Origin: Anaerolineae bacterium
GTDB taxonomy: Bacteria > Chloroflexota > Anaerolineae > Aggregatilineales > Phototrophicaceae
Reading direction: 5' to 3'
Length of the DNA: 59,796 bases
NCBI GenBank assembly: GCA_012270545.1
Contig: JAAXID010000132.1
Coordinates: 17,236 to 77,031 of the forward strand
Below are positions 22,774-43,926 of this stretch, piece by piece. Within the stretch, counting starts at the first letter, position 1, and every line of letters starts with the position of its first letter. Made by a program: the position numbers and the translations under genes. The notes beneath the pieces are model-generated. The model saw nothing but the letters and a program-made list of their open reading frames with translations. It was not told the DNA's origin and did not search any database.

Positions 22774-22859
22774 AACATCCCGATCGTACTTTCGGTCGAT
22801 ACAAGTGTCGCCCCTACAAGGCTTGTCCGTTACTGGGTCATGCTACCGCGCTTTTTCTA

Positions 22860-23348: not shown

Positions 23349-23378
23349 TAACTAATTTGTTGGGGGCGGCCTATCAGG

Positions 23379-24116: not shown

Positions 24117-24117
24117 C

Positions 24118-24951: not shown

Positions 24952-25110
24952 AGGAAGCTCCAGAAACCCGTGCGCTACCGGTGCGTCTAATAGCTTAACA
25001 AATTTTCTATTGGATGGTCAGAATCTGGCGACTGGGTAGTGTATCCATTTCGATTGAAATTCAAATGAACCGATATGAACTGTCACAAAGCGCAGAAAAT
25101 TATCGCTGAG

Positions 25111-25155
25111 GCCTCTGTGTTCTCTGTGTTGCCTCCGTATCCTCTGTGGTGAAAT
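25111..25155. repeat. CACAGAG-type intergenic repeat (family 2), reverse orientation
   Basis: GCCTCTGTGTTCTCTGTGTTGCCTCCGTATCCTCTGTGGTGAAAT, the reverse complement of the …TTCACCACAGAGGA…CACAGAGAACACAGAGG consensus. Confidence 0.5.
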
Positions 25156-25351
25156 ATGTGTGGTTCTCGACATAGGGCGATTCCCAACAAATTCATCACT
25201 CCTTTTATATTTCCACCGACTTCGATACACTACCGGCGACTGTCGCGCGCCGATTGAGGCGGCTGCGCTTTCGCTCTTTCCAGCAGGTTACCGAGCCAAT
25301 GTTTTGTACTATAATCCACTGGTATCGAATCGACGGATATCGCAATAGCCT

Positions 25352-26332: not shown

Positions 26333-26339
26333 GCGCCAC

Positions 26340-27380: not shown

Positions 27381-27422
27381 AACTACGACCTGTGACAGAA
27401 TCTTTTAACGAAGGATATTGCC

Positions 27423-28259: not shown

Positions 28260-28312
28260 GGACGATACTATTGACCAAAAATCCTGCGCTGAGCGACTAG
28301 CAGGAGGGAAAG

Positions 28313-29134: not shown

Positions 29135-29166
29135 GCTATCGATTAGAGAATCACGAAAGGAAACGA

Positions 29167-29967: not shown

Positions 29968-30538
29968 GAGCGCCCCCCCACCTGCCGCCTTGACAACTGC
30001 GCGAAAACAATCTCTATATACAGCTATAACAGAACATACATTCTAAGTTTGTGCCACGCTCTCATCTGGAGCGCAGCTCACGAATTCCGACGAGAACTTC
30101 TTGCAACCTGGACAAAACGCGTGTATACTGTATAAATATAAGGAGTGCAACAAAAAACGAGCTGGAAGCTCGCTTTGGATCGATTTCCCTGCGCCAGAAG
30201 GGAAGTCAAGATCGTTACAATCTTGTCCTCATTTTAGCACAGATGTACCGAACTGTCACGCGAGATTTGACTGCAATTTAGCCAGTTTTTCAGGTAAAAT
30301 CGTCGCTCATTATGCAGCTCTTTCCTGGTAGCTGGAACCGAAAAAGAAGGGACATCCACCCCTTCTCCAAATTCAAGTCAGACCTGTTGCGCTCTTAAAA
30401 CGATCGGCTACTGTATGCTAAGTAGCCGATCCATTATAAGCCCGCATCTGCCCGCAATGTGGAGCAGCTTGTTTTGTATTCATGCAAGGTCTACGCCAAG
30501 ACTTGACTAACATTGAAAGAAAGTAGCGGCGAAAAAGG

Positions 30539-32563
30539 ATGAGAAAAACAGACAACTCTTTGCAAAAGCAGTTGCGAAAGCGCGCGAAGAATTTAGCGCA
30601 GGCCGGCTACTCGCCGATTCCGGTCCACGGCAATAGCTCGCCGGCGGAACCAAAGAAGCCCGCTGTCAACTGGCGTATATATCAGAATCGAATCGCATCA
30701 GCAGCGGAAATTAAGCGGGGATTCAAGGAGAAAGTGACGGCATTAGGCATTGTCTGCGGCCGGGTATCAAAGCTGATGGTGATCGATTTCGACGATGTGC
30801 TGCGCTATCAACGCTTTTGTCGTCATCTTCCACAGTACAGCGAAACCTACACGGTGAAGACCAAGCGTGGCTTTCATTTGTATTTTCGCACAGGGGAGAA
30901 GGTACCAAGTCATCAGTTTGATGGTGGCGACATCAAGGCCGAGCGATCGTATATTATTGCGCCTCCATCGCGGATCGGAACCTTCGTCTATCGCTGCGTA
31001 AAGGATGTAATCGAGTGTGAACTAACAAAGACCGATGTGAACCAGTTACTCAAATACTTTCATGTAAACGCATTGACGCATGCTCCGGCAGGCAAGCGGA
31101 TAAGAGAAACAAAGGACCTGAACCTCAAGCGTCTATACCGCCGGCTTGCGCCACGCATAGGTCGAAATAATGCACTATACCGCGTCGCAGCCATTGCAAG
31201 GGAATCCGGCATCGCTAAAGCGGATACCGAAAATCAATTGATCAAGTTACATGCTGAGACGCCAAGTCACCCTGGCCACAGATACGAAACAGCCAGTGAG
31301 CGATGGCAAGAGGGCTTGCGCACAATTGAAAGTGCTTATGGAAATAGCGGACTACCGAATAAGGGAAGAGATGGCCTGCCAAATTCTGTGCGCGAGCGAT
31401 TACTGAAGGCACAACGTTCGACCATTGTCGCTCGCCTATTGGACATCTTCGCTTTAGCGGGCTGGGAAACCGACGCGTACTTCACTTTGAAAGAGGCTGT
31501 GAACTTAGGCAAAGAGTTCAGTTTGAATAGAAAGAGCATCCTGCAAGCTTTGACCGGCGACCTCAGCATCTACGATGGGCGGCATATCATCAGTAGAAGA
31601 TATGTAGAATACTTGGACATTAAGGGACTTAATTCGCGGAAGCGTGGGAGACCGGTGGAGCTGGCCTTTCAGGTGCCGTCGATTGCGAGACTGATGAGTG
31701 TGTTGAATGTCGGACGGTCTCCCAGTGATCGTCTGCGCATCGAGGATGTAAGATCGGCAAAGTTGTATCGAATGGCGGTGCACCGCGAATATATTCACAG
31801 GCTATCGCCGAGGTCGTCGTTGTCGATTTTGGCTGGACGCGTTGGCGTGAATGAGCGGACGATACGCAGGTACAACCGGGCGCTGGGCGTAACGCTGACG
31901 GCCTGTGTGGGCCGCCTGAAACTGACTCGAGAGGCTTTGGCGAGCTTGCCAAAACGTGGCTGGCGCGCCGGGAAGAACACGACGAGTGGATTCTGGCTGG
32001 AGACGGCAGATGGATCGCGCTTGCCGGCCTGGCGGCACGTTGGTGCAAGGCTCCTGCGTGCGGGCGACGGCAGCGCGAATATCTGCGTGAGGCACGCTTC
32101 GGTGTTTAGTTTGGGCGTGGAGCTCAGGCCCGCATTTCAGTTTGAGAATGTGTCAGTACGGCAATTTGCCCGCCTGCTCGTATTGCGGGGCGAAGCGGCG
32201 AACGATGGCGGGCTGATTGGGCGATTGGGCAATGCCTTGGACGCGGCCCGTGGGCGCGCTGCGGCGCTGCGATACGAAAGAGTTCAGCTGTTCTTCGACA
32301 GCGTGGAGAGGCGAATAGCGGATGATAAGGTGGCGGAGACGATCAGCGGCTATTTATTCGCGCGTGACGATAGCGGCGCGGAAGTGCGACGGCCCGCGCG
32401 AAGGGGGATAGCGTACCGGATGCTAAAGGAGTACGGCAACGGGAATGTTTACCTGGCGCTGCGCAGTTCGTACAAGGATGTGGTGGTGTCACTGGCGCGT
32501 CATGCGTTGCAAGCGGGCGATGCGGAGCAGGGATTGGACCTGTTGGCGCGTACCTTGGCTTAA
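30539..32563 (+). CDS. Bifunctional DNA primase/polymerase (PrimPol) N-terminal-domain replication protein
   Basis: 674 aa. The N-terminus has AEP/PrimPol motifs LMVIDFDD (DxD), KTKRGFHLYF (catalytic His region) and DIKAERSYIIAPPS. I found no P-loop in the remaining ~480 aa. Confidence 0.7.
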   Translation: MRKTDNSLQKQLRKRAKNLAQAGYSPIPVHGNSSPAEPKKPAVNWRIYQNRIASAAEIKRGFKEKVTALGIVCGRVSKLMVIDFDDVLRYQRFCRHLPQYSETYTVKTKRGFHLYFRTGEKVPSHQFDGGDIKAERSYIIAPPSRIGTFVYRCVKDVIECELTKTDVNQLLKYFHVNALTHAPAGKRIRETKDLNLKRLYRRLAPRIGRNNALYRVAAIARESGIAKADTENQLIKLHAETPSHPGHRYETASERWQEGLRTIESAYGNSGLPNKGRDGLPNSVRERLLKAQRSTIVARLLDIFALAGWETDAYFTLKEAVNLGKEFSLNRKSILQALTGDLSIYDGRHIISRRYVEYLDIKGLNSRKRGRPVELAFQVPSIARLMSVLNVGRSPSDRLRIEDVRSAKLYRMAVHREYIHRLSPRSSLSILAGRVGVNERTIRRYNRALGVTLTACVGRLKLTREALASLPKRGWRAGKNTTSGFWLETADGSRLPAWRHVGARLLRAGDGSANICVRHASVFSLGVELRPAFQFENVSVRQFARLLVLRGEAANDGGLIGRLGNALDAARGRAAALRYERVQLFFDSVERRIADDKVAETISGYLFARDDSGAEVRRPARRGIAYRMLKEYGNGNVYLALRSSYKDVVVSLARHALQAGDAEQGLDLLARTLA

Positions 32564-32614
32564 CTTGGCAGGGCTAAGTGATGCGCTAGCGCGGACGCGG
32601 GCAGCGGGTCGACC

Positions 32615-32638
32615 GATACCGTTACTCGTGTAACGGTT
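32615..32638. promoter_or_regulatory. parS-like palindrome (imperfect copy)
   Basis: GATACCGTTACTCGTGTAACGGTT has one central mismatch to the perfect copy at 32902-32927. It lies between the PrimPol stop and its terminator. Confidence 0.5.
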
Positions 32639-32654
32639 GAGGCACAGTGCGAGA

Positions 32655-32684
32655 AAGCGCATCTTCGGATGTGCTTTTAATTTT
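32655..32684 (+). terminator. Putative intrinsic terminator after the PrimPol gene
   Basis: AAGCGCATC-TTCG-GATGTGCTT (9-bp stem with one G-U pair, UUCG loop), followed by TTAATTTT. Confidence 0.55.
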
Positions 32685-32714
32685 GGCTATTGTTGAAGAT
32701 GCGCTGTCGGGGAG

Positions 32715-33923
32715 TCAGCTATCAGATTCGTCGATGTCCGCCATGAGGCGCAAGAGCTGCCGGATTTCAGCTTCAATGAGCTTGCGGATCTTTGGCCGGT
32801 TGTTGAAGTCGACGGAATTGATCTCCTTGCGGAGTTTGTTGCGCCACTGCGTGGCATCGGCGGCGAGACGCGCGATCGTGTCCTTCTTGCGCTTGCCTCT
32901 GGATACCGTTACACGTGTAACGGTATCGAGGGCAGCTCGCATCTTGCGGAGTTCGCCTTCACTCAAGTCTTCGTCGTCCCCCTTGCGCCACAGTTCACCG
33001 GGCAGACGCAAGAGCGCCCGATACTGACGGAGCTGGCCCGCATCTGAGAACCCCATGGCATTAAGGAGTCGCTCGCCTTGGCCCCGGGGAATGCGCCAGG
33101 CCGAGCCGTCAGCGACTTGCGCGTAAAAGGCTTGTTCGTTGTCGCAGGCGTCGAGCTTGCTGAAATGCTGCCAGCCGTGCAGGTCCATCAAGAGAAGCGA
33201 CAGTTGTCGTGCCCGGCTGATCGCGTTGAGGTTGTCGCGCGCGTTGTTTTCGCTCGCTTGACGCCAGACATCGACCTGAGTCACGATGCGAGCTGGAATG
33301 CGGGACCAATTGACGACATTGCCATCGGGCCGCTTATCGCCGTCGCCGAACTTCCAATAGAGGATGTGATAAGCGAGCCAGCGCCGTTCGCCCGTTTCGA
33401 TCTCGTAATAATTGTCGTGTTGCACAAGGCTGATGGGATTGGACAAGCCGTCGCGACGGATGCTGGCGGCCAGGTCGATCAGTTTCATCAACGCGAGTTC
33501 TTTGCTCGAAGCCATTTGACCGGCAGGCGTGGCCTCCCCATCCTGGCTCTCGGCGCGTTCGCCGCGGTCGGTCGCCGTGCCCAACAGGAAGTTGAGGATA
33601 TCGTAATCCTTCTGCCCTTTTTCGAGCTGTACTTCGATGATCCAGCGCTCGAAAATGTCTACGATGTTTTTGGGATGAAGAGCGAAGATATCGGTGAGAT
33701 CATGGGGAATGCTGTAGCGCGGCTGGATGGAATTCGGATGAATCTCATGGATGCTGACCGCTTCAATCGGCTGAAACTCGCTGTCGGCCGCGGCGATCTC
33801 CAGCGCCAATTCCCCCAAGCCAAAGCCGATGGCGTCGGCGGTTTTTGGGTCGAGCGTGTTGGGATTGGCAAAGAGCAGATTTTCTTCGTCCTGTATTTTC
33901 CGCCGGCGTTCACGACTGCTCAT
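32715..33923 (-). CDS. parB: ParB/Srx-domain partition protein
   Basis: ATG at 33923 lies 7 nt after GGAGGAG (the ORF extends to 33947). ParB box I-like [13 protein letters not shown] and box [17 protein letters not shown], with an HTH region after them. It overlaps the parA stop by 14 nt. Confidence 0.8.
32902..32927. promoter_or_regulatory. parS-like perfect 26-bp palindrome inside the 3' part of parB
   Basis: GATACCGTTACACGTGTAACGGTATC. The core GTTACACGTGTAAC differs from the canonical parS core GTTTCACGTGAAAC only at one symmetric position pair. Confidence 0.55.
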
Positions 33924-34707
33924 ACATCCGCTCCTCCAACTGCTCAATCAGGTGCCAGGCATCTTCGGCGGTGCTGCTGCCGGGCGCCAGTGAGAAGACT
34001 GTGCGGCGCGCGCTCGCCACTTCCGTCCAGATGGTGCGCACCGGAAGCGGCTTCCACACCAGGCTGCCGAAAGTGTCTTGCAAGCGGCGCAGGTTGTCCT
34101 GATGTTCGAGAGTCCGCCCGCGGTACATGGTCGGCACCACCCCAAGGACTTTGATATCGTTCAAATTATATTGCTGCCGAATTGGGCTGAACTGGTCTTT
34201 GTGTGTCAAGCTTTCACGCAGACCATCGAAGCTCCAAGCCTCGCATTTTGTCGGATATATGATCCCGTCCGTCGCCATGTAAATTGAAGAATGCAGCAGG
34301 GACGGGGTCGGCGAAGTATCAAAAAATACAAAATCTATCGCATTGCGTAATTGATTAAATCGCTTCAAAACGGTGAAGGCATCGGATATATTTCCGGCGA
34401 TGCTGCGCGTCTCTATATTAGATGGCACGACCAGCAACTGCCCGTCCGTATTGTTGGCCTCGTCCGGCACGTTAAAGCGCTCCGGCGGCACCGGGCGCAG
34501 CACCTTCTGAAAGGGGGCGTTGCGGACGATGAGATCGTAAAAGCCGGGTTCCTTCAACAAGCCGAAGGCGATGGTGGCGTGCCCCTGGGGATCAGCGTCG
34601 ACCAGGATGACCCGTTTACCCCGGATGGCTAAACCGGCGGCAAGGTGAGTGGCGAGGGTCGTTTTGCCTACTCCACCTTTTTCGTTCAGGAGCGTGATGA
34701 TTTTCAT
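33910..34707 (-). CDS. parA: ParA/Soj-type partition ATPase
   Basis: 265 aa with deviant Walker [18 protein letters not shown] and Walker B-like [14 protein letters not shown] lies 7 nt upstream of the ATG. Confidence 0.9.
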
Positions 34708-34717
34708 GACGATTCAC

Positions 34718-34963
34718 CTATTCTCGCGCGTAGGCTCTAGCGACGGAATAAACGTAGCCGGTTACACCGTTATTAAATGTGACGATGCTGCGACGGAAAA
34801 CGCCTTCATCCACCAATGCGTCCATCATGGTGATGAGGTGCGGTGTCTTCTTCCGATTGAGCCGGTTGACGATCTCGGTACGCGTAAGAGGTCGCTCGCT
34901 GCGCGCGACGATGTCGATCATCAACTGCCGGGTTTCGGAGCGAGGACGGTGGTCTTGGGACAT
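34718..34963 (-). CDS. Small putative winged-helix DNA-binding protein (81 aa), first gene of the par operon
   Basis: ATG at 34963 after GGAGA. …PLTRTEIVNRLNRKKTPHLITMMDALVDEGVF… looks like a wHTH recognition region. Its stop lies 10 nt before the parA start. Function is inferred only. Confidence 0.45.
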   Translation of the reverse strand: MSQDHRPRSETRQLMIDIVARSERPLTRTEIVNRLNRKKTPHLITMMDALVDEGVFRRSIVTFNNGVTGYVYSVARAYARE

Positions 34964-35005
34964 AAGCGAATCGTCTCCGCCATTGGACAGTATAGATACA
35001 ATATA

Positions 35006-35034
35006 ACTATAGCGCGTTTCCCTGAATCGCGCAA
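35006..35034 (-). promoter_or_regulatory. Candidate promoter of the wHTH-parA-parB operon
   Basis: Minus strand reads TTGCGC, 17-nt spacer, TATAGT. The spacer contains the inverted repeat GCGCG…CGCGC, a possible operator. Confidence 0.35.
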
Positions 35035-35207
35035 GGGTGAAGGCGCAAACTGGTAGAATCTGGTACATTACGCAAGATCACGAGCGCAGCGATAGTAACC
35101 TGCACGGCGCCGGTCTTGGAAACAGTGGCATAGAACAAATATGCTAATAAGCATTGCGTCTGGTCGTTGCTCAGCCGGAGAATATCGCAGTCAGCGCTGA
35201 GTCGCCA

Positions 35208-35213
35208 TATAAT
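35208..35213 (+). promoter_or_regulatory. Perfect TATAAT -10 box upstream of the helicase-nuclease operon
   Basis: TATAAT at 35208-35213, about 35 nt before the proposed start region. There is no good -35 element. Confidence 0.3.
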
Positions 35214-35248
35214 CGTGGCAGGTTTCAGTTGTGTTAGGATGAAATACC

Positions 35249-37372
35249 CTGGCCGATAACGCGTCGAGTCCACTCACCGCTGCGCAGTCCGAGCTTGCGC
35301 GGGCGCCGCTCAAACGCAAAATCTGGCTCGAGGGCATCGCCGGCAGCGGCAAGACGAGTGTCGGCGTTGCGCGAGTCTTGCATTTGCTGGAGCGCGGGGC
35401 GCCGGCTGAATCGATCTTGATATTTGTGCCGCAGCGTTCATTGGCGCAGCCTTATATCACGGCCTTGCGCGGCTGGACGGCACATCGAGGCGGGCAAGTC
35501 TCGGTGCAGACTATCGGCAGCTTGTCTCTGCAGATGGTGGAGGCTTTCTGGTTCCTCATCGCTGGCGATGCCGGCTTCAAGCACCCGCGCGATCTGCCGA
35601 ACTTTCTCAGCCTGGAACTGGTGCAGTATTTCATGACGCGCGCCATCGAGCCGCTGGTTGATGAACGGGATTACTTCAACAGTGTGCGGATTGACCGACC
35701 GCGGCTTTACAGTCAGATAGTCGACAATATGAATAAGGCGGCGCTGGTCGGCTTTCCCATCAGCGAGATCGGTTCTCGCCTGAAAACGGCGCTGGCGAGC
35801 GGGGTGGAGCAGGCGCATATCTTCGATGACGCGCAGACCTGTGCCCTGGCTTTTCGCAAATATTGCCTAGAGCATAATTTGCTGGATTTCTCATTGCAGC
35901 TGGAGGTCTTTCGCGACCATGTCTGGGCGGCGCCACCGGCGCAGGGATATCTGCGCGGGCGCTGCAAGCATCTCATTGTCGACGGCGCTGAAGAAGATAA
36001 TCCGGCATCTCATGGTTTCCTGAGTGATCTGCTGGAGAGCTGCGAATCGGCGCTGATCATCTACGACCGTGACGCCGGCTTTCGCCGTTTTCTGGGCGCG
36101 GATCCCAATAACGCGCGCCGCTTGCGCGACCGCTGCGATGTGAAAACGACGCTTGACGAGACCTTTGTGATGGGGGAGGCGGTGGCGGAGCTGGGCGCGC
36201 AGTTGGCGGCGCAGTTGGGCATCTCCGTCACAGCGGAGCGCGATGCCGATCCGCGACCGGCATTGATTACGGAGGCGCACCGCTATCATCCGGAAATGGT
36301 GGACTGGGTGGCGCGGCAGGTTGACATGCTTGTGCGCCAACGGGATGTCTTGCCGAATGATATCGTGATACTGGCGCCATTCATGTCCGACGCGCTCCGC
36401 TTCGGCTTGGCGGATGGCTTGGCGCAACGCGGGATTTCTGTGCGGTCGCATCGGCCCTCGCGGGCGCTGCGCGATGAGCCGGCCGCCCGAACCTTGCTTA
36501 CCCTGGCGCGGCTGGCGCATCCGCACTGGGACCTGCCGCCGGCCGATTTCGATATCGTCTTCGCCTTGATGGCGGCGATCAAGGACCTTGATCTGGTGCG
36601 CGCCAAACTGTTGACGGAGATGCTGCATCGGAATGGTCGGCTGCTGCCCTTTGCCGAGGTGCGCTCGACCGCCATGCAAGGGCGCATCACTTTTGATCTG
36701 GGCGAGCGTTATGACCGGCTGGCGGCCTGGATAAACCGCTACATTGATGAGGCCCGGAACGATGCCATCGATATCTTCTTCCGGCGGCTGTTTGGCGGGT
36801 TGCTGTCGCGCGCTGGCTTCGGCTTTCACGATGATGTCGATGCCGGCAATATCAGCATGAATCTTGTCGATTCCGCCCGCGGCTTCCGCTGGTCGCTCGA
36901 CTTCATGAGCCGCTATGACGTCGATATCGATCTGGGGCTGGATTATGTGAAAATGGTGGATCGCGGCATTATCGCCAACTTTTATCTGCGGGATTGGATC
37001 GCGGATGCGGAAGAGGCTGTCTTGATCGCGCCGGCTTATACATTCCTGCTGAACAACCGGCCGGTGGATTATCAGTTCTGGCTCAACATCGGCAGTGAGG
37101 GCTGGTCGCGCCGGTTGTATCAGCCCTTGACCCACCCCTACGTATTGAGCCGTGGCTGGCCGCCCGGCGCGCTATGGACCGAGGATGAGGAGCAGCATTT
37201 GAGTCGCGAGTCGCTTGGGCGGCTTCTGCTGGCATTGACGCGCCGTTGCCGCAAAGCGATATACCTGGGTTACAGCGAGCTCAGCGAAAGCGGCTACGAG
37301 CAGCGCGGGCTGCTCCTGGAGACGATACAGAGCCTGCTGCGGCGGCTCGCGCAGGACGGGCAACATGTTTAA
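35249..37372 (+). CDS. Degenerate UvrD/AddB-like ATPase subunit (P-loop intact, helicase motifs II/III degenerate)
   Basis: The reading frame is open from 35243. P-loop GIAGSGKTS is encoded at 35333-35359, upstream of the first canonical start (TTG 35378). Motif II reads IVDGAEEDN and motif III reads AGFRRFLGAD. The C-terminal LTRRCRKAIYLGY resembles motif VI. Start tentatively set at CTG 35249 (AGGA 9 nt upstream). Confidence 0.65.
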   Translation: MADNASSPLTAAQSELARAPLKRKIWLEGIAGSGKTSVGVARVLHLLERGAPAESILIFVPQRSLAQPYITALRGWTAHRGGQVSVQTIGSLSLQMVEAFWFLIAGDAGFKHPRDLPNFLSLELVQYFMTRAIEPLVDERDYFNSVRIDRPRLYSQIVDNMNKAALVGFPISEIGSRLKTALASGVEQAHIFDDAQTCALAFRKYCLEHNLLDFSLQLEVFRDHVWAAPPAQGYLRGRCKHLIVDGAEEDNPASHGFLSDLLESCESALIIYDRDAGFRRFLGADPNNARRLRDRCDVKTTLDETFVMGEAVAELGAQLAAQLGISVTAERDADPRPALITEAHRYHPEMVDWVARQVDMLVRQRDVLPNDIVILAPFMSDALRFGLADGLAQRGISVRSHRPSRALRDEPAARTLLTLARLAHPHWDLPPADFDIVFALMAAIKDLDLVRAKLLTEMLHRNGRLLPFAEVRSTAMQGRITFDLGERYDRLAAWINRYIDEARNDAIDIFFRRLFGGLLSRAGFGFHDDVDAGNISMNLVDSARGFRWSLDFMSRYDVDIDLGLDYVKMVDRGIIANFYLRDWIADAEEAVLIAPAYTFLLNNRPVDYQFWLNIGSEGWSRRLYQPLTHPYVLSRGWPPGALWTEDEEQHLSRESLGRLLLALTRRCRKAIYLGYSELSESGYEQRGLLLETIQSLLRRLAQDGQHV

Positions 37373-39602
37373 GCCGCGGCCCAAACAGGCGGAAGTGCTG
37401 GCCTATCGGCGCGGTTATATGGGTGTGGCGGCCGTGCCAGGCAGCGGCAAAACAGCGACGCTCTCGTACCTGGCGGCGCAATTGCTGGCGGAGACGGACC
37501 TGGCTGACGGACAGGAAATCCTGATCGTCACTTACGCTAATTCGGGAGTTGCAAATTTCGCGCGGCAAATCAAAGAATACGTCAAGGGGGACGGCCTGCT
37601 GCCCGGCTACGGCTATCGCGTGCGCACCTTGCACGGCCTGGCGAACGATATCGTCCGCGGCAAGCCCACCGCCGCAGGTCTCGACGATCAGTTCACCATC
37701 GTCGACGAACGTGAGAGCAACGCGATCCTGGCCGAGGCCGTTGATGCCTGGATCCGTCGTTATCCGGAAGCGCCCGCTGCCTACCTGGCGCCTGAGCATG
37801 TGGAGAAGGGACACTACCGAACGCAGAAGTGGGCGGAGCTCTTGACCGAGACGGCGCGCAGCTTCATCAAGCAGGCGAAGGACGATCTGCTGACGCCGCT
37901 CGATGTCGGCAGAATGCTCGACGCTTACCCGGGCGAACTGCTGCTGGCGGAGATTTGCGCTGAAATCTATGACGATTACGATCGCGCGCTGGCCTATCGC
38001 GGAGCGGTCGATTTTCAAGACTTGATCCGCCTGGCGCTGAAGGTGCTGCGGGAAGAGCCGGCCTATCTGGCTTCGATGCGGCGCAAGTGGGTCTACATTC
38101 TGGAAGATGAAGCGCAGGATAGTTCGTGGCTGCAAGAAGACATCTTGCGAACGCTGGCGGGGGAGGGCGGCAACTGGGTGCGCGTCGGCGACCCCAATCA
38201 AGCGATCTACGAGACCTTCACCACCGCCGACCCCAAGTATCTGCGCGAATTCATCGCGTCGGCTGGGGTCGTAGATCGCGAGCTGCCCAACTCCGGGCGC
38301 AGCACGCGCAGCATTCAGAAGTTGGCGAATTACCTGATCACCTGGTCGCTTGCGCATCCCCACCAGACGATCCGCGACCGCATGCCACTGAGCAAACCCT
38401 ATATTCAGCCGACGCCGCCGGGTGATCCACAGCCCAACCCGGTGGACAATCCGGACGTGGTGGTCTTGTTCGCGGAAGCTTACAGCGCGACCAAAGAAGC
38501 CATGATCGTGACGGAATCCTGTAAGCGCTGGCTGGCGGCGAACCCAGAGGGGACGGCGGCGATACTGGTGGCGCGCAACACACGCGGCGCGGAGATCGTC
38601 AAATTTCTGCGTCAGTCGGCTGTGCCTTATGTCGAGAATCTCAACAGCACCTCATCGACGCGCGCGGTGGTCGGCGCCCTTTCGCGCGTGCTTGGCTATT
38701 TGGCCGACCCCAAAAGCGCGGGAAAGCTGGCGGAGGTGTATCGTGTCTGGCGGCGTGATGATCGTGATGATGCGGCGGCGGTCGCCGAGATCAAGGGAAC
38801 AACTGACGCGCTGAGGCGAATCAAGAAAGTGGAAGACCTGGTCGCACCTCGTCTGAGCGACTGGCTCGAAGACATCGCTGAAGAAGGTGATGGAGCGCAA
38901 TACGATGGTCTGCAAATTTTTCGCGAGCGAGTTGGCGCCTGGCTGCGCGCCGCCGAGATGCCCATTGATCAACTGATATTGACGATCGCCGGCGACATAT
39001 TTCGTGATGTGAGCGAGATCGCGACGGCGCACATGGTCGCGCTTTATCTGGCGCGCCTGGCTGACACCCACCCGCTGATGCGCCCCCCGGAATTCGCCGC
39101 CGAGCTATACGATATCGCCAGCAACAAACGCCGCTTCACTGGCTTGAGCGATGACGAAGGGCAATTCGACCCCGACGCACACAAGGGCAAAGTAATCGTG
39201 ACCACGCTGCATAAGGCCAAGGGACTGGAATGGGATCGCGTCTATATGATCTCGATCAACAACTACGACTTTCCCTCTGCCGAAGCCAACGACAGCTTCA
39301 TCGGCGAGAAGTGGTACATCCGTGATGATCTCAATCTGTCGGCCGAAGTGCTGGCGCAGTTGACGGCGCTGCAAGAGGGGGGCAGCTACAAGGAAGGCTT
39401 AGCCAGCCTGAACGCGCGCATCGACTACGCCGCCGAACGCTTGCGCCTGCTCTATGTCGGCATCACCCGGGCGCGCAAAGCCTTGACCATCACCTGGAAT
39501 ACGGGCCGAGGCGAGGCGACTGAAGCGACCCCGTTGCTGGCTCTGCGCACCTTCTGGGAAGGCGAGCAAATGAAGGAGGCGGATCGTGAGCCTCAGCGCT
39601 GA
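37365..39602 (+). CDS. UvrD/Rep/AddA-type SF1A DNA helicase without a nuclease domain
   Basis: 745 aa with AVPGSGKTATL (I), ILEDEAQDSS (II), VGDPNQAIY (III), TLHKAKGLEWDRVY (V) and LLYVGITRARKAL (VI). The ATG overlaps the upstream stop (ATGTTTAA). Confidence 0.85.
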   Translation: MFKPRPKQAEVLAYRRGYMGVAAVPGSGKTATLSYLAAQLLAETDLADGQEILIVTYANSGVANFARQIKEYVKGDGLLPGYGYRVRTLHGLANDIVRGKPTAAGLDDQFTIVDERESNAILAEAVDAWIRRYPEAPAAYLAPEHVEKGHYRTQKWAELLTETARSFIKQAKDDLLTPLDVGRMLDAYPGELLLAEICAEIYDDYDRALAYRGAVDFQDLIRLALKVLREEPAYLASMRRKWVYILEDEAQDSSWLQEDILRTLAGEGGNWVRVGDPNQAIYETFTTADPKYLREFIASAGVVDRELPNSGRSTRSIQKLANYLITWSLAHPHQTIRDRMPLSKPYIQPTPPGDPQPNPVDNPDVVVLFAEAYSATKEAMIVTESCKRWLAANPEGTAAILVARNTRGAEIVKFLRQSAVPYVENLNSTSSTRAVVGALSRVLGYLADPKSAGKLAEVYRVWRRDDRDDAAAVAEIKGTTDALRRIKKVEDLVAPRLSDWLEDIAEEGDGAQYDGLQIFRERVGAWLRAAEMPIDQLILTIAGDIFRDVSEIATAHMVALYLARLADTHPLMRPPEFAAELYDIASNKRRFTGLSDDEGQFDPDAHKGKVIVTTLHKAKGLEWDRVYMISINNYDFPSAEANDSFIGEKWYIRDDLNLSAEVLAQLTALQEGGSYKEGLASLNARIDYAAERLRLLYVGITRARKALTITWNTGRGEATEATPLLALRTFWEGEQMKEADREPQR

Positions 39603-40413
39603 TTTCGCCTTCACGCAGGGAAGCCTGCAAGATTATGTCGATTGCCCCCGCCGCTTTGAGCTGCGCTTCATCAAACGAATGCGCTACCCGGCGCTGGAAG
39701 TGCAGGAGCCGCTGCAATTCGAGAAGCGGATGCGACAGGGCGCGCGCTTTCACAAACTCGTGCAGCAGCATCTGCTCGGCGTGCCGGCTGAGGCGCTGTC
39801 GGCGTCGCTGGCCGATGATGAGGAATTAGCGCGTTGGTGGGCGAACTACTTGGCGCGCGGCTTGACCGATCTGCCGGCGCAGCGTCACAGCGAGATCACG
39901 TTGCAGACGCAGCTGGCTGGTCGCCGGCTGGTGGCGAAATATGATTTGCTGGCGCTGGCGCCGGGCGGGCAGGCGGTCATCGTCGATTGGAAGACGGGAG
40001 CGCGCCTGCCATCGCAAGCATACCTGCGCGGGCGGATGCAGACGATCGTCTATCGTTATGTGTTGGCGCAAGCGGGCGCTCACCTGTACGCCGGCGAGGG
40101 TATTCCGCCGGAGCGGATCCGCATGGATTATGTCTACGTGGCGCAAGGCGGGGAGCGCGTGAGCTTCGAATACTCGGCGGCGGAGATGAGCGAGGACGAA
40201 ACGCTGCTGTCGGAGATGGTCGCGGCGATTGACCGAGCCGAAGCCTTTCCGCTGACCGATGAAGAGAGGCGCTGCCGCTTCTGCAGTTACCGCTCGCTCT
40301 GTGATCGGGGTGAGGCAGGGCGGCTGGAAGATTTCGACGTTGACGAATATGAAGACGACGAGGAAGAAGCCTTCACGCTGGACTTTGATCAGATCGCCGA
40401 GATTGAGTTTTAG
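39586..40413 (+). CDS. Stand-alone PD-(D/E)XK nuclease with Cas4/AddB-type 4Fe-4S cysteine set
   Basis: 275 aa with N-terminal DYVDCPRRFEL, nuclease core YDLLAL…VIVDWKTG and QTIVYRY, and C-terminal CRFCSYRSLC (C…CX2CX5C). The GTG start overlaps the helicase gene by 17 nt. Confidence 0.8.
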   Translation: MSLSADFAFTQGSLQDYVDCPRRFELRFIKRMRYPALEVQEPLQFEKRMRQGARFHKLVQQHLLGVPAEALSASLADDEELARWWANYLARGLTDLPAQRHSEITLQTQLAGRRLVAKYDLLALAPGGQAVIVDWKTGARLPSQAYLRGRMQTIVYRYVLAQAGAHLYAGEGIPPERIRMDYVYVAQGGERVSFEYSAAEMSEDETLLSEMVAAIDRAEAFPLTDEERRCRFCSYRSLCDRGEAGRLEDFDVDEYEDDEEEAFTLDFDQIAEIEF

Positions 40414-40429: not shown

Positions 40430-41629
40430 ATGAAAATCGATCGCATCCGCAGCCTGCACGTCAGCGCCGAGTGGGATTACCACGAACCGCTCGGCGAAGC
40501 CCATCTCTCGCGGCCGGAGAGCATCTATCCCGAGCTTGAAGCGCGCGTACCGAGCTGGCCTGTGCCTGATAAGTCGAGCGGACCGCCTTACGCCCTGGAG
40601 GCGCACTTTCTGCTCATCGACACCGATGAAGGCGCGACTGGCATCTGCGGGCCGGTCAGTGATGAAGATATCGCCATCATCAATCGCTATTTCGTCGACA
40701 TCCTCATCGGCGAAGATCCGCAGGCCATTGAGCGCATCTGGGACAAGATGTACCGCCGTTCGATCCACGGCCGCAAAGGAACGCCGATGATGGCGCAGAG
40801 CAAGGTCGATCTGGCACTCTGGGACCTAAAGGGCAAGCTCTTGGATGCGCCGGTCCATCAGTTGCTCGGCGGACCCAGCCGCAGCAGAATACGGGCATAC
40901 GCGTCGATGCTGGGTTACTCGGTCGAGCCGAACAAGGTGGTCGAGCGGACGCGGCACTTCCTGGCGCAGGGTTATACCGCCTTCAAGTGGTTCCTGCCCT
41001 GCGCGCCCAAAGATGGCGAGCCCGGCATTCGGGTGAATCTGGCGGTTATCCGCGCCGCGCGAGAAGCGGCCGGCCCCGATGTCGATCTGATGTTCGATGC
41101 CTGGAGCAGCTGGAATGTGCCCTACACGCTGCGCATGGTCGAGCTATCGCGCGAGTACCGCCCATATTGGTTCGAAGAGCCGGTGCTGGCCGATTTGATC
41201 CCGCAATATGCCGAGCTGCGAAAAGCGGTCAGTGGCGTCTTCATCAGCGGCGGCGAGCATGAGTATACGCGCTGGGGCATCAAAGCGCTGCTGGATGCGC
41301 GCGCGGTGGATGTCTTGCAAGCCGATGTGACCTGGGCCGGCGGTTTGAGCGAGATGACAAAGATTTGCGCCTTGGCCTCGGCCTACGACATCCCGGTGAT
41401 CCCGCATCACGGCGGCTGGCCCTCCACCCATTTGATCGCCTCGCAGAGCTTGACCACCTGCCCAATGCAGGAGTGGCTCATTCAGCACGGCCGCATGCCC
41501 AACGTCTTCTACAAGCACAAGCTGAATCCGGTCGGCGGGCATATCGATGTGCCGAATGCACCCGGCCTGAACATGGACCTGGCGGAAGAAGGCGTAACCA
41601 TGCTCGAGGAGCGGACGCTGACGGGCTGA
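40430..41629 (+). CDS. Enolase-superfamily enzyme (mandelate racemase / acid-sugar dehydratase-like)
   Basis: Internal ATG after GGAGGAG. KVDLALWDLKGK, DAWSSW, FEEP and GGEHE are consistent with MR-subgroup metal ligands. Confidence 0.8.
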   Translation: MKIDRIRSLHVSAEWDYHEPLGEAHLSRPESIYPELEARVPSWPVPDKSSGPPYALEAHFLLIDTDEGATGICGPVSDEDIAIINRYFVDILIGEDPQAIERIWDKMYRRSIHGRKGTPMMAQSKVDLALWDLKGKLLDAPVHQLLGGPSRSRIRAYASMLGYSVEPNKVVERTRHFLAQGYTAFKWFLPCAPKDGEPGIRVNLAVIRAAREAAGPDVDLMFDAWSSWNVPYTLRMVELSREYRPYWFEEPVLADLIPQYAELRKAVSGVFISGGEHEYTRWGIKALLDARAVDVLQADVTWAGGLSEMTKICALASAYDIPVIPHHGGWPSTHLIASQSLTTCPMQEWLIQHGRMPNVFYKHKLNPVGGHIDVPNAPGLNMDLAEEGVTMLEERTLTG

Positions 41630-43926
41630 TGGGGAGACAGGGGCATCCGCGAAGGGAATGGCGGGAACCGGCGCCGGTAGAGGTGCCAAAGCCGCTCGCT
41701 GACCTCGCCGGTGGGCATACGTTGGTCGGGCAGTACTTGGTGCGAAAAGGCATCACATCCGTCTCTGCGGCCGAGCGCTTCCTCTCGCCCGAGAAGTACA
41801 GGCCCGCAGCGCCCGGCGAATTGCCTGATATTGACCGCGCCGTTGAGCGGCTGGAAGGCGCGCTCCGGGACCAAGAGCGTATCCTGATTTGGGGCGACTT
41901 TGATGTTGATGGCCAGACATCGACCGCGCTGCTCTATTCGGCGCTGAAGCGGCGCGGCGCGCGCGTGAGCTACCATGTGCCGAATCGCTTCAGTGAAGGG
42001 CATGGCATTCACCTGCCCACCTTGAAGGGACAGCTCGATGGCGGCGTCGACTTGATCCTGACCTGCGACACCGGCATCAGCGCCCACGACGCCATCGACT
42101 ATGCCGCGAGCCGCGGCGTCGATACGATCATCACCGATCATCATGCGCTGCCTGAGAAGCTGCCGCCTGCTGCTGCCGTGGTCAACCCGCGCCGCTTGCC
42201 CGCGGGACATGCGCTGCGCGAGCTGCCCGGCGTCGGCGTCGCCTACAAGCTCATCGAGGCGCTCTATCGCGGTGCTGACAGCAACTTTCTGCTGGATCTG
42301 GTCGCGCTCGGTATCGTCTCCGATGTCATGACGCAGGTCGATGACACGCGTTATCTCTTGCAGCGCGGTCTGGAGGGGCTGCGGGCGAATCAGCGGCTGG
42401 GCTTGAAAGCGATTCTGGAACGGGCGCAGATCCCGGCGGCCGAGCTCAACGAAGGGCATATCGGTTTTGCGATCGCGCCGCGATTGAATGCGCTGGGGCG
42501 GCTCGCTGACGCCAAGCCGGCCGTCGAGCTATTAACCACGGACGATTGGGGGCGGGCGCGCATCCTGGCCAATACGCTCGAGGGTTTCAACGCACGGCGC
42601 AAATACCTGTCGAATCAGGTTTATGAGTCGGCGATCGCCCAGATCGAAGCCGCGCCCTGGCTGTTGGAATATGCGGCGCTCGTGCTGAGTCATGCGGATT
42701 GGCATAGTGGCGTGATTGGCATAGTGGCCAGTCGGCTGGTCGAAGAGTTCGGCATGCCGGTCCTGCTGATCGCGGCGCCTGCTGAGACGGGACGCGGCTC
42801 GGCGCGGTCGGTTGAGGGCGTGGATATTACGGTTGCCTTGAGGGAGGTGGCGAACTATTTGAATCGCTATGGCGGGCACAGCATGGCGGCCGGGTTCAGT
42901 TTGCCCGCCGAAAAGGTCTTCCAATTCCGACGCGCCCTCTCGCGGACCATTCGCGAAATGGTCGGCGACGCGCCTATGAGGCCGTCGCTTGCGATTGACG
43001 ATTATTTGAACTTGGCGGATATCTCGCTGAATCTAACGGCCGATATTGAGCGGCTGGCGCCATTTGGAAACGGCAATCCGCCGCTGACCCTGGCGACGCG
43101 CAATTTAAGCGTGGCGAGCCGCAGGGGACTCGGACGCCGCGGGGAGCATCTGCAAGTTGAGGTTGAAGATGAGCGGGGGCGGCGGCAGCGGGTCATCTGG
43201 TGGCGGGGCGCGCGGGGCGATTTGCCGGGTGGGCGCTTCGACCTCGCCTATACCTTGCGCACGAGCGTCTATAAGGGTGAACGTGAAGCGCTCGTCGAGT
43301 GGCTGGATTATCGTCCGCTCAGCTCGGAACCGATTGAGATTGCGGCCGAGGCGCCCGCCTATGAGCTATTGGATATGCGTCTAAGCGCGCACCCGCGGGC
43401 CGAATTGGCAGAGGCGCGCGACCTGTATCCCAGCGCGCTGGTCTGGGCGGAAGGGGAAAAGGTTGATGGCGCGGTCGACAGGCTGGGTCTGCGATTGAGC
43501 GAAACGCTGATCGTCGGGACTGTCCCGCCATCGGCTGCGACCTGGTCGGCGGCGCTGGTGACAGTGAATCCTGAAAGGCTCATCCTGTTCAGCTTGCGAC
43601 CGCCCACGGAGACGATCCGGGACTTTCTGGCGCGCCTGGCGGCTTTGATCAAATACGCCGTTAAGCAAAAGCGTGGGCTCGTGGGACTGGATGACCTGGC
43701 GGCGGCGCTGGGCGAGCGCGAGCGCAGCGTCCAAGTCGGATTGCAAGTGCTGCGCGCGCTGGGTAAACTCAACTATCAGGTGGGGGCGACCGGCGAGTAT
43801 CATCTGGAATTGGCTGATGCCGAGCCGAGCGACCAACTTGAAGACCTGCAAAAACGGCTGGGCTTGCTGCTGCGAGAAACGCGCGCCTACCGCAACTATT
43901 GGCTGAGGATGAAGATTCAGGATTGA
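41629..43926 (+). CDS. recJ: Single-stranded-DNA-specific exonuclease RecJ
   Basis: ATGA overlap with the enolase-family stop. DHH motifs ILIWGDFDVDGQTS, LILTCDTG and IITDHH, plus a DHHA1 region (GGHSMAAGF). The ORF-track extension back to 41365 lies inside the upstream gene. Confidence 0.85.
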   Translation: MGRQGHPRREWREPAPVEVPKPLADLAGGHTLVGQYLVRKGITSVSAAERFLSPEKYRPAAPGELPDIDRAVERLEGALRDQERILIWGDFDVDGQTSTALLYSALKRRGARVSYHVPNRFSEGHGIHLPTLKGQLDGGVDLILTCDTGISAHDAIDYAASRGVDTIITDHHALPEKLPPAAAVVNPRRLPAGHALRELPGVGVAYKLIEALYRGADSNFLLDLVALGIVSDVMTQVDDTRYLLQRGLEGLRANQRLGLKAILERAQIPAAELNEGHIGFAIAPRLNALGRLADAKPAVELLTTDDWGRARILANTLEGFNARRKYLSNQVYESAIAQIEAAPWLLEYAALVLSHADWHSGVIGIVASRLVEEFGMPVLLIAAPAETGRGSARSVEGVDITVALREVANYLNRYGGHSMAAGFSLPAEKVFQFRRALSRTIREMVGDAPMRPSLAIDDYLNLADISLNLTADIERLAPFGNGNPPLTLATRNLSVASRRGLGRRGEHLQVEVEDERGRRQRVIWWRGARGDLPGGRFDLAYTLRTSVYKGEREALVEWLDYRPLSSEPIEIAAEAPAYELLDMRLSAHPRAELAEARDLYPSALVWAEGEKVDGAVDRLGLRLSETLIVGTVPPSAATWSAALVTVNPERLILFSLRPPTETIRDFLARLAALIKYAVKQKRGLVGLDDLAAALGERERSVQVGLQVLRALGKLNYQVGATGEYHLELADAEPSDQLEDLQKRLGLLLRETRAYRNYWLRMKIQD

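What the first reader, a model, noticed from the sequence alone, without database searches (positions are those of the whole stretch)
35243..40413. Three-part, single-nuclease AddAB-like helicase-nuclease module next to the plasmid-type island
Three co-directional genes are translationally coupled, with an ATGTTTAA overlap at 37365-37372 and a 17-nt overlap at 39586-39602. Gene 1 derives from the UvrD/AddA fold and keeps a P-loop (GIAGSGKTS). Its motif II is IVDGAEEDN instead of DExQD, and its motif III is AGFRRFLGAD instead of QxIYxFRGAD. It is therefore predicted to bind ATP but not translocate, like the N-terminal part of AddB. Gene 2 is a complete SF1A helicase with motifs I-VI present, but it ends right after motif VI and so lacks the RecB-type nuclease that AddA, RecB and AdnAB carry. 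Gene 3 is a 275-aa stand-alone PD-(D/E)XK nuclease (IVDWK, QTIVYRY). It is bracketed by one N-terminal Cys (DCPRRF) and CRFCSYRSLC, the C…CX2CX5C iron-sulfur staple of AddB and Cas4. Domain content thus equals an AddB split in two with a nuclease-less AddA encoded between the halves, giving a one-nuclease complex. I do not recognise this order and split as a described end-resection or defence system. Its position, divergent from the PrimPol/ParAB module and upstream of recJ, leaves three possibilities: lineage-specific DSB processing, replicon maintenance, or anti-phage/anti-plasmid activity.
Basis: partly seen in the sequence, partly recalled or inferred. Interest (0 to 1): 0.75.

Follow-up and report, generated by a model that had tools for sequence, protein, structure and literature searches.

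The report
Split AdnAB/AddAB-like helicase-nuclease operon with RecJ
Three overlapping genes encode a dead helicase-like subunit, a live helicase and an iron-sulfur nuclease; with the RecJ gene downstream they form a conserved, so far unnamed cassette that most likely trims broken DNA ends in Anaerolineae-type Chloroflexota.

Summary
Two corrections apply.
- Gene 1 has no ATG/GTG/TTG ahead of its P-loop. Homologues place the start at CTG 35249, and the public annotation of this sequence is truncated.
- The motif III of gene 2 is a family-invariant variant.

Gene 1 (707 aa) has a full SF1A fold. It keeps the Walker A motif but has lost the catalytic Glu and the motif III Gln. Gene 2 (745 aa) is a nuclease-less UvrD-type motor. 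The predicted structure of gene 3 (275 aa) best matches the Fe-S nuclease domain of mycobacterial AdnA, then AddB, and not the AdnB/AddA nucleases. The "split AddB/AdnA plus nuclease-less motor" reading is therefore supported.

The module is chromosomal and conserved: at least 581 matches in species-representative genomes, and the 80 inspected are almost all Anaerolineae-type Chloroflexota.
- g1 to g2 adjacency: 58 of 67 loci.
- g2 to g3 adjacency: 44 of 50 loci.
- recJ follows g3: 21 of 30 loci.

Salinibacter ruber plasmid pSR56 carries g1-g2-g3-recJ as one block, so the unit has four genes. The ParAB/PrimPol neighbourhood is inherited clade-level synteny, not a mobile island.

Most likely function: housekeeping resection of the 5' strand at double-strand breaks. 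I found no description of it. I rate it a new variant of a known kind.

The parts
35208..35213 (+). TATAAT -10-like hexamer upstream of g1
   Evidence: Read directly. The surrounding GTCGCCATATAATCG is conserved in L001, L002 and L004. The consensus promoter scan found no full -35/-10 pair, so this is tentative.
35236..35239 (+). AGGA Shine-Dalgarno-like element, 9 nt before the inferred g1 start
   Evidence: GGATG(A/G)AATACC(C/T)TGG is conserved with L001, where the start codon is TTG.
35249..37372 (+). g1: 707-aa degenerate SF1A helicase-like subunit. It is the counterpart of the AddB/AdnA motor-like domain, keeps Walker A and has lost its catalytic residues. Inferred CTG start.
37365..39602 (+). 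g2: 745-aa UvrD-type SF1A helicase with motifs I-VI (variant motif III) and no nuclease domain. Predicted 3'->5' motor.
39586..40413 (+). g3: 275-aa stand-alone Fe-S PD-(D/E)XK nuclease of AdnA/AddB type. Key residues are H56, D120, D134, K136, Q152, Y156 and C20/C230/C233/C239. It ends in an acidic tail, ...DFDQIAEIEF.
40431..41629 (+). MR/MLE (enolase-superfamily) gene wedged between g3 and recJ. Probably a passenger. It starts 18 nt after the g3 stop and overlaps the recJ ATG by 1 nt.
   Evidence: It is present only in the closer relatives; in many distant loci recJ abuts g3.
41629..43926 (+). recJ: 765-aa 5'->3' ssDNA exonuclease (DHH, DHHA1, RecJ_OB) with about 195 extra C-terminal residues. 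Fourth member of the conserved cassette.

Best explanation
This is a lineage-typical chromosomal operon for recombinational processing of DNA ends. It encodes an unfused, three-polypeptide relative of the AdnAB/AddAB helicase-nucleases, together with RecJ.

Proposed mechanism, by analogy with the AdnAB and AddAB structures; none of these steps is shown here:
1. g2 is the only active motor. It translocates 3'->5' on the 3'-ended strand and unwinds the duplex.
2. g1 binds nucleotide but does not hydrolyse it. It follows on the same strand as a scaffold or scanning subunit and holds g3.
3. g3 sits at the fork through its Fe-S subdomain and cuts the displaced 5' strand.
4. RecJ degrades the 5'-ended ssDNA further.
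5. No AddA/AdnB/RecB-type nuclease is present for the 3' strand, so the default product is a 3' ssDNA tail for RecA loading. Chi-dependent attenuation of a 3' nuclease is not needed.

Shown here: domain identities, loss of catalytic residues in g1, an intact catalytic and Fe-S set in g3, gene overlap, conserved synteny, and co-transfer with recJ. Inferred: formation of a complex, strand polarity and the biological role.
For: Domain and fold assignments:
- g1 and g2 are SF1A-type and g3 is PD-(D/E)XK.
- The best structural match of g3 is the AdnA Fe-S nuclease, 9np6_A at 1.3e-8, TM 0.65 and rmsd 3.8 A over 267 columns. AddB scores 5.5e-5 and AdnB 0.063.
- g3 has D120/D134/K136 with the same spacing as the AdnA active-site residues D920/D934/K936, plus an invariant His (PMC8789073).
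- In AdnAB the Fe-S nuclease belongs to the motor-like subunit and cuts the 5' strand (PMC8789073).
- The g1 family profile hits AdnA (1e-6) and AddB (2e-4) ahead of AdnB (0.05).
- g1 keeps invariant G34/K35 but lacks the catalytic Glu and the motif III Gln.

Genetic linkage:
- The reading frames overlap by 8 nt and 17 nt.
- g2 follows g1 in 58 of 67 loci, g3 follows g2 in 44 of 50, and recJ lies within about 3 kb after g3 in 21 of 30. In 7 of those it abuts g3 within 53 nt or less.
- Where g1 is unlinked, g2-g3-recJ persist about 190 kb away in the same chromosome. Matching contig lengths point to two more such genomes.
- Salinibacter ruber plasmid pSR56 carries g1-g2-g3-recJ contiguously, at 39/42/42/43% identity.

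Housekeeping character: the genes lie on 4-6 Mb chromosomes. There were at least 581 matches among species-representative genomes and no phage hit.
Against: - No biochemical or genetic data exist, and no multimer prediction could be run, so the complex is inferred only from operon structure and analogy.
- I could not test whether these genomes lack canonical AddAB, RecBCD or AdnAB. If they have one, the cassette would be an accessory pathway.
- g2 is more similar to UvrD/PcrA/Rep than to AddA/RecB/AdnB.
- Foldseek does not distinguish g1 from active helicases.
- Unrelated genes are sometimes inserted between cassette genes, and g1 can be unlinked from the rest. Strict co-translation is therefore not required.
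- E248/E249 are invariant in motif II of g1 and could conceivably restore catalysis.
Confidence: 0.6

Rival explanations
1. The genes are co-located repair genes, not a single machine. g2 would be a general UvrD-like repair or anti-recombination helicase. g1 would be an accessory or regulatory paralogue, for example HelD-like. g3 would be a solo Cas4-like 5' flap or end nuclease. RecJ would be the ordinary RecF-pathway exonuclease, sharing an operon with them only for co-regulation.
For: - g2 scores best against PcrA/Rep/UvrD models and UvrD structures.
- g1 has faint HelD and helicase IV hits.
- Insertions between the genes and one clade with g1 unlinked show that tight coupling is dispensable.
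- Hudaiberdiev et al. describe unfused UvrD plus Cas4-like operons with an unspecified repair role (PMC5704561).
Against: - g2 is far below the equivalog cut-offs for PcrA/UvrD/Rep: 116-132 bits against 911-1144.
- Degenerate paralogue, motor and Fe-S nuclease is exactly the AdnAB/AddAB parts list.
- The four genes moved together to a plasmid in another phylum, at matching divergence.
- 8-nt and 17-nt overlaps are typical of genes for subunits made in fixed ratio.
Confidence: 0.17
2. The cassette is an anti-phage or anti-plasmid defence system, or a counter-defence or maintenance module carried by mobile elements. It would degrade foreign linear DNA, as RecBCD or Gabija-type helicase-nuclease systems do.
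For: - One copy lies on a plasmid, pSR56, next to an XRE regulator and an antitoxin-domain gene.
- g2 hits GajB models and g3 hits Cas4, pAgo-associated Cas4-like and DruK models in PADLOC.
- The g3 fold resembles ACE1, a pAgo partner (PMC12094033).
Against: - The PADLOC hits are generic superfamily hits. g1 gives only E of about 1e-3 to 1e-4, and no partner genes (GajA, pAgo, cas) are present.
- Only 1 of 72,556 plasmids and 0 of 50,697 phages carry g1.
- In Chloroflexota it is on the chromosome with stable flanks and with identities that track relatedness.
- It is linked to recJ, not to defence islands.
Confidence: 0.08
3. The cassette is a replicon-maintenance function tied to the neighbouring PrimPol/ParB/ParA block, for example processing of replication intermediates of a secondary replicon.
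For: - g1 is divergent from wHTH-ParA-ParB and close to PrimPol.
- In the clade where g2-g3 moved away, g1 stays with that block.
- GC skew changes sign near 28-32 kb.
Against: - The block is found next to g1 only in close relatives (loci L001-L018, L058, L072). It is absent from all the more distant loci that keep g1-g2-g3-recJ, and from pSR56.
- The relatives carry it on 4-5 Mb chromosomes.
- There is no DnaA-box cluster: 9 matches against 5.7 expected.
Confidence: 0.03

Closest known systems
AdnAB (mycobacterial heterodimeric motor-nuclease; PDB 6PPR, 7SJR, 9NP6)
   Same: - A lead SF1A motor works with a paralogous motor-like subunit that binds nucleotide but is not the driver.
- An Fe-S PD-(D/E)XK nuclease is associated with the motor-like subunit. 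The g3 model superposes best on the AdnA nuclease, with the same D-x13-D-x-K spacing.
- The motor-like gene lies upstream of the motor gene.
- The g1 profile finds AdnA ahead of AddB and AdnB.
   Different: - Three polypeptides instead of two, with the nuclease unfused and encoded after the motor gene.
- No second nuclease of AdnB type for the 3' strand.
- g1 is more degenerate than AdnA.
- g2 is closer in sequence to UvrD/PcrA than to AdnB.
- recJ is part of the cassette.
- The cassette is found in Chloroflexota, whereas AdnAB was reported only in Actinobacteria (PMC6452273).
AddAB (Bacillus subtilis type; PDB 3U4Q, 4CEJ)
   Same: - A single active SF1A motor.
- An AddB-like partner that keeps Walker A but has degenerate helicase motifs.
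- An Fe-S 'staple' nuclease with the C...CX2CX5C pattern.
- Foldseek matches g1 to AddB (9e-21) and g3 to the AddB nuclease (5.5e-5).
   Different: - The AddB equivalent is split into g1 and g3, with the motor gene between them.
- The AddA-type nuclease is absent.
- NCBIfam addA/addB equivalog scores are far below cut-off.
- Chi recognition is unknown.
RecQ (or UvrD) plus RecJ end resection of the RecF pathway, as in Deinococcus radiodurans
   Same: A 3'->5' helicase works with the RecJ 5'->3' exonuclease to produce 3' tails without a Chi-regulated nuclease. Here recJ is genetically linked to the helicase genes.
   Different: Here the helicase comes with a dedicated degenerate paralogue and a dedicated Fe-S endo/exonuclease, and the genes form one cassette. 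In the model organisms recQ or uvrD and recJ are unlinked.
Unfused UvrD plus Cas4-like (pfam12705) operons and UvrD-Cas4 fusions noted by Hudaiberdiev et al. 2017 (PMC5704561)
   Same: A UvrD-family helicase is genetically coupled to a pfam12705 Cas4-like nuclease in a non-CRISPR, non-defence context, and was proposed to act in repair.
   Different: That paper describes two-gene operons, mostly in Clostridiales, and fusions linked to restriction-modification systems. It does not mention a degenerate second helicase-like subunit, recJ linkage or the Chloroflexota family.

Membership tests
AddAB | Two subunits, each an SF1 helicase(-like) N-terminal region fused to a C-terminal RecB-family nuclease | tested here: not met
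   There are three separate ORFs with stop codons at 37370-72 and 39600-02. Lengths of about 700, 745 and 275 aa are constant across the family.
AddAB | AddA: an active SF1A motor carrying a C-terminal nuclease for the 3' strand | tested here: not met
   g2 has motor motifs, but UvrD_C ends at residue 713 of 745 and there is no PD-(D/E)XK domain. It scores 72-75 bits against addA equivalogs with cut-offs of 708-861.
AddAB | AddB: a helicase-like domain with Walker A but inactivated motor motifs | tested here: met
   In g1, G34/K35 are invariant, the catalytic Glu is replaced by G/N, and the motif III Gln is deleted. Foldseek matches it to AddB chain B at 9e-21.
AddAB | AddB nuclease with a 4-Cys Fe-S cluster bracketing the PD-(D/E)XK core | tested here: met
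   In g3, C20, C230 and C233 are invariant and C239 nearly so. D120, D134, K136, Q152 and Y156 are conserved. The fold matches AddB chain B at 5.5e-5. Metal content was not measured.
AddAB | Chi-sequence recognition by the inactive helicase domain | not testable with these tools
   This needs complete genomes for oligomer-skew analysis, plus biochemistry.
AdnAB | A heterodimer of paralogous motor-nuclease fusions with two active nucleases, AdnA on the 5' strand and AdnB on the 3' strand | tested here: not met
   The cassette has only one PD-(D/E)XK nuclease, and it is unfused.
AdnAB | An AdnA-type Fe-S nuclease fold | tested here: met
   The top four Foldseek hits of the g3 model are AdnA chains, at 1.3e-8 to 2e-7, TM 0.62-0.65 and rmsd 3.8-3.9 A.
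CRISPR-associated Cas4 | Meets the Cas4 family thresholds and lies in a cas1/cas2 adaptation context | tested here: not met
   TIGR00372 scores 35 bits against a cut-off of 65. Pfam Cas_Cas4 scores 21.2 against 22.7. The ORFs directly flanking the cassette, from PrimPol (30539) to the EamA-type transporter gene (45632), carry no cas domains.
UvrD/PcrA/Rep (equivalog level) | Score above the NCBIfam equivalog cut-off | tested here: not met
   g2 scores 116-132 bits against cut-offs of 911-1144. Membership of the superfamily is met: Pfam UvrD-helicase 147.6 bits and UvrD_C 73.7 bits.
Gabija and other PADLOC defence systems | Specific model hits plus the system's partner genes | tested here: not met
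   There are only generic GajB/Cas4-type hits. g1 is no better than 2.5e-4. No GajA, pAgo or cas genes are adjacent.
RecJ | DHH, DHHA1 and RecJ OB-fold domains | tested here: met
   Pfam gives 4.6e-26, 2.2e-16 and 6.2e-18. Against PDB RecJ 8y30 it scores 2.2e-87.

The most novel reading that the evidence does not exclude
g1-g2-g3-recJ is a fourth architectural class of bacterial DSB end-resection machine, alongside RecBCD, AddAB and AdnAB. It would be an unfused heterotrimer with one live motor, one nucleotide-binding dead paralogue and one Fe-S nuclease for the 5' strand, working with a dedicated RecJ. It would replace the canonical systems in Anaerolineae-type Chloroflexota, produce 3' tails without Chi control, and be transferable as a self-contained cassette, as on Salinibacter plasmid pSR56. 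The conserved disordered acidic tail of g3 (...EIEF-COOH) may be the tether that docks the free nuclease to a partner, possibly in an SSB-Ct-type pocket such as the one in the RecJ C-terminal domain.
Probability: 0.4. Interest if true: 0.75.

Novelty: new variant of a known kind. Interest (0 to 1): 0.6.

Why it matters
Bacterial recombination is taught around three end-processing machines: RecBCD, AddAB and AdnAB. About 12% of genomes are reported to have none of them (PMC6452273).

A conserved, unannotated cassette in a large and mostly uncultured phylum could fill part of that gap. It re-creates the AdnAB/AddAB parts list as separate polypeptides, omits the 3'-strand nuclease and recruits RecJ.

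It also offers a natural 'exploded' version of these machines. That makes it possible to ask what the dead helicase subunit and the Fe-S nuclease each contribute, and whether fusion or fission came first in their evolution.

In practice, public annotations call these genes 'hypothetical protein', 'ATP-dependent helicase' and 'PD-(D/E)XK nuclease family protein'. In this very sequence the P-loop of g1 is lost because the start was mis-called.

Tried and rejected
- The locus scan with the most diverse g1 alignment (A2) failed because it had no conserved 7-10-mer. It was repeated with A3.
- Sequence searches of single proteins against the PDB were uninformative for g1 and g3. Profile and fold searches were needed.
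- Foldseek on g1 could not separate AddB/AdnA from active helicases.
- The one long hit, P0246 (1419 aa), is not a helicase-nuclease fusion. It is a g1 C-terminal half behind an unrelated low-complexity region.
- PADLOC gave only generic hits.
- There was no phage hit.
- The DnaA-box search showed no cluster, so the GC-skew switch is not evidence for an origin.
- The consensus promoter/terminator scan upstream of g1 found nothing.
- Six literature searches and full-text look-ups in two of the papers found returned no description of this cassette, of pSR56 gene content, or of AddAB status in Chloroflexota.
- I considered that g2+g3 might be a split AddA/AdnB. I rejected this because g3 carries the Fe-S cysteines and matches AdnA/AddB, not the AdnB/AddA nucleases.
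- I could not test for canonical addAB/recBCD/adnAB in the same genomes, because no whole-genome access remained. I could not run a multimer prediction.


Full report
**What is there**

The mechanical ORF list shows three co-directional + strand ORFs: one ending at 37372, one at 37365-39602 and one at 39586-40413. I read both junctions.
- The g2 ATG lies inside ATGTTTAA at 37365-37372, which ends in the g1 TAA.
- The g3 GTG at 39586 lies 17 nt before the g2 TGA at 39600-39602. A GAAGGAGG sits at 39573-39580.

One correction concerns the start of g1. The frame opens at 35243 after a TGA, but it contains no ATG/GTG/TTG until TTG 35378. That codon lies downstream of the P-loop, which is encoded at 35333-35359.
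- Homologues begin MADN... exactly where the window has CTG 35249.
- The closest relative, L001, has TTG there.
- An AGGA lies 9 nt upstream, and a TATAAT at 35208-13 is conserved.

I therefore place g1 at 35249-37372 (707 aa), with a CTG start or a T>C change in a TTG start. The public gene call for this same sequence (P0002, 622 aa) starts at an internal Met and loses the P-loop.

**What the proteins are**

Pfam and NCBIfam results:
- g1 has only the UvrD N-terminal domain, weakly (1.4e-9).
- g2 has UvrD-helicase (7.6e-43) plus UvrD_C ending at residue 713 of 745, so it has no nuclease. Its best full-length models are PcrA/Rep/UvrD at 116-132 bits, far below the equivalog cut-offs and above recB/addA at 72-78 bits.
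- g3 is PDDEXK_1 (5.4e-27). Cas4 models fall below threshold.

*g1.* An AF2 model (pLDDT 81.5) has a complete four-subdomain SF1A fold. It matches UvrD/Rep (about 1e-21), AddB (9e-21, TM 0.60), AdnB, AddA and AdnA about equally.

A profile-profile alignment of the g1 and g2 families (E 8e-9) shows what g1 has lost:
- The Walker B Asp is kept.
- The catalytic Glu is replaced, by Gly here and by Asn in the family.
- The motif III Gln is deleted.

Across 43 diverse members, G34, K35, E248 and E249 are invariant. g1 is therefore a nucleotide-binding, probably non-hydrolysing paralogue, which is the AddB/AdnA situation. Its family profile finds AdnA (1e-6) and AddB (2e-4) ahead of AdnB (0.05) in the PDB. 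Generic PcrA/UvrD N-terminal hits come first.

*g2.* It has all the motor motifs, with a family-invariant variant of motif III, GDPNQAIYETFTTADP.

*g3.* Thirty orthologues share the following:
- invariant C20, C230 and C233, with C239 nearly invariant;
- H56, D120, D134-W-K136 and Q152...Y156.

The D-x13-D-x-K spacing is the same as AdnA D920/D934/K936 (PMC8789073).

The AF2 model (pLDDT 83.8) matches AdnA chains best: 1.3e-8 to 2e-7, TM 0.62-0.65, rmsd 3.8-3.9 A. Exo5, ACE1, Cas4 and AddB chain B (5.5e-5) follow. AdnB reaches only 0.063, and no AddA or RecB nuclease is in the top 50.

In AdnAB the Fe-S nuclease belongs to the motor-like subunit and cuts the 5' strand (PMC8789073). By that criterion g1+g3 equals a split AdnA/AddB, and g2 equals the motor subunit without its nuclease.

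**Not fragments and not an artefact**

- The g1 family has 1019 representative clusters at E<=1e-3 and 330 at 1e-30. Members are about 700 aa throughout.
- The top 120 g3 orthologues are 262-282 aa.
- The top 120 g2 orthologues are 726-777 aa.
- The single long outlier is not a nuclease fusion.

**Distribution and synteny**

The best 80 are nearly all Anaerolineae, Aggregatilineales or Phototrophicaceae and unclassified Chloroflexota. They include the cultured Anaerolinea thermolimosa, one Ca. Limnocylindria MAG and several complete 4-6 Mb chromosomes. Even members at about 30% identity are labelled Anaerolineae.

Among loci with enough flank:
- g2 follows g1 in 58 of 67.
- g3 follows g2 in 44 of 50.
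- recJ lies within about 3 kb downstream of g3 in 21 of 30, and in seven of those it abuts g3 within 53 nt or less.

Unrelated genes are occasionally wedged in. Examples are an M14 peptidase and a phosphoglycerate-mutase-like gene in L029 and the MR/MLE gene in this window.

In one clade (L005-L010, L013) g1 is not followed by g2. In the complete chromosome OZ242316.1, g2-g3-(RT)-MR/MLE-recJ lie about 190 kb away.

In this window the operon runs on tightly:
- The g3 stop is at 40411-13.
- The MR/MLE ATG is at 40431.
- The MR/MLE stop overlaps the recJ ATG at 41629.
- recJ ends at 43926.
- A TIM-barrel gene starts at 43931.

**The decisive extra observation**

The only plasmid hit among 72,556 records is Salinibacter ruber M8 plasmid pSR56 (phylum Rhodothermota). 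It carries four adjacent genes, annotated as hypothetical protein, ATP-dependent helicase, PD-(D/E)XK nuclease family protein and RecJ. They are 39, 42, 42 and 43% identical to g1, g2, g3 and RecJ of the window.

All the diagnostic motifs are kept, including the C-terminal EIEF of g3. The cassette has therefore moved between phyla as a four-gene unit. This is strong comparative evidence that RecJ belongs to it functionally. No phage carries g1.

**The neighbourhood**

PrimPol (30539-32563), a ParB-like gene, ParA and a small wHTH gene are confirmed. The whole block, in the same order, flanks g1 on the chromosomes of the closer relatives, with ParA 92-98% identical. It is absent from all the more distant loci and from pSR56. 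It is inherited synteny of one clade, not a plasmid-type island functionally tied to the cassette.

The GC-skew sign change near 28-32 kb is not accompanied by a DnaA-box cluster.

**Mechanism**

This is inferred by analogy with AdnAB/AddAB (PMC8789073, PMC3321194) and with RecQ/UvrD-RecJ resection (PMC4846377, PMC2806897).
1. g2 drives 3'->5' translocation on the 3'-ended strand.
2. g1 follows as an ATP-binding scaffold, and possibly as a sequence scanner.
3. g3 sits at the fork and cleaves the 5' strand.
4. RecJ digests the 5' strand processively.
5. With no nuclease for the 3' strand, a 3' tail is the default product.

I put this at about 0.6. The main rivals are listed below.

| Rival | Confidence |
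|---|---|
| Co-regulated but independent repair enzymes | 0.17 |
| Defence or mobile-element function | 0.08 |
| Replicon maintenance | 0.03 |

**Comparison and novelty**

The cassette works like AdnAB/AddAB but fails their defining architecture: two motor-nuclease fusions with two nucleases. It also falls below all equivalog thresholds.

The closest published remark I found is a sentence on unfused UvrD plus Cas4-like operons, mostly in Clostridiales (PMC5704561). That paper mentions no second helicase-like subunit, no recJ and no Chloroflexota. AdnAB has been reported only in Actinobacteria, and 12% of genomes lack all three canonical systems (PMC6452273).

I rate it a new variant of a known kind. 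It is housekeeping in character, but it is unnamed and architecturally distinct.

**What remains untested**

- Whether a complex forms.
- The polarity of the nuclease.
- Any Chi-like control.
- Whether the host genomes lack canonical end-processing enzymes. This is the most important open point.

Noticed in passing
window 35243-35380: The P-loop of g1 is encoded upstream of the first canonical start codon. The homologue-supported start is CTG 35249, which is TTG in the closest relative. The public gene call for this same sequence (P0002, 622 aa) starts at an internal Met and omits the ATP-binding motif.
   Followed up: yes
window 40330-40413 (g3 residues about 250-275); L082 15330-15393: g3 ends in an acidic linker that is disordered in the model (pLDDT below 50), followed by a strongly conserved terminal motif. 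The motif is ...LDFDQIAEIEF-COOH here and ...DLDDVEEIEF in Salinibacter. It resembles the acidic, Phe-terminated SSB C-terminal tail that docks into the C-terminal domain of Deinococcus RecJ (PMC4846377). It may tether the free nuclease to g1, g2 or RecJ.
   Followed up: partly
window 43340-43926 (RecJ residues about 570-765): The cassette RecJ has about 195 residues beyond the OB fold that align to no solved RecJ at the sequence level. This could be a partner-binding domain.
   Followed up: no
window 30539-35068; loci L001-L018, L058, L072: The PrimPol, ParB-like, ParA and wHTH block is conserved in order next to g1 on the 4-5 Mb chromosomes of relatives. ParA is unusually conserved (92-98% identity), while PrimPol is 50-71%. 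The block stays with g1 even where g2-g3-recJ have moved about 190 kb away. The PrimPol gene sits in a local GC dip (0.50 against about 0.60).
   Followed up: partly
window about 22000-34000: GC skew switches from negative to positive, with the cumulative minimum near 26-30 kb. There is no DnaA-box cluster in the window (9 one-mismatch matches against 5.7 expected). The switch may simply reflect gene orientation.
   Followed up: partly
L081 8828-11377 (OZ242316.1): An 849-aa reverse-transcriptase (RVT_1) gene is inserted directly after g3, overlapping its stop, between g3 and the MR/MLE-recJ genes in one Phototrophicaceae chromosome.
   Followed up: no
window 40431-41629: A metabolic MR/MLE (enolase-superfamily) gene sits inside the repair operon. 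Its stop overlaps the recJ ATG by 1 nt. It is present only in the closer relatives. In many distant genomes recJ abuts g3.
   Followed up: partly
L082 (NC_014028.1 10001-17884): Salinibacter ruber M8 plasmid pSR56 carries the whole g1-g2-g3-recJ cassette. An XRE-family regulator lies about 800 bp upstream, separated from g1 by one hypothetical gene, and a winged-helix gene lies downstream. g1 is annotated only as a hypothetical protein.
   Followed up: yes
window 37365-39602 (g2 residues 275-290): Motif III of g2 is GDPNQAIYETFTTADP, and it is invariant in the family. The Arg-Gly of the canonical (F/W)RGA is replaced by Thr-Thr, with a one-residue insertion. AdnB Trp325 in this motif is the translocation ratchet pawl, so the variant may alter stepping.
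   Followed up: partly
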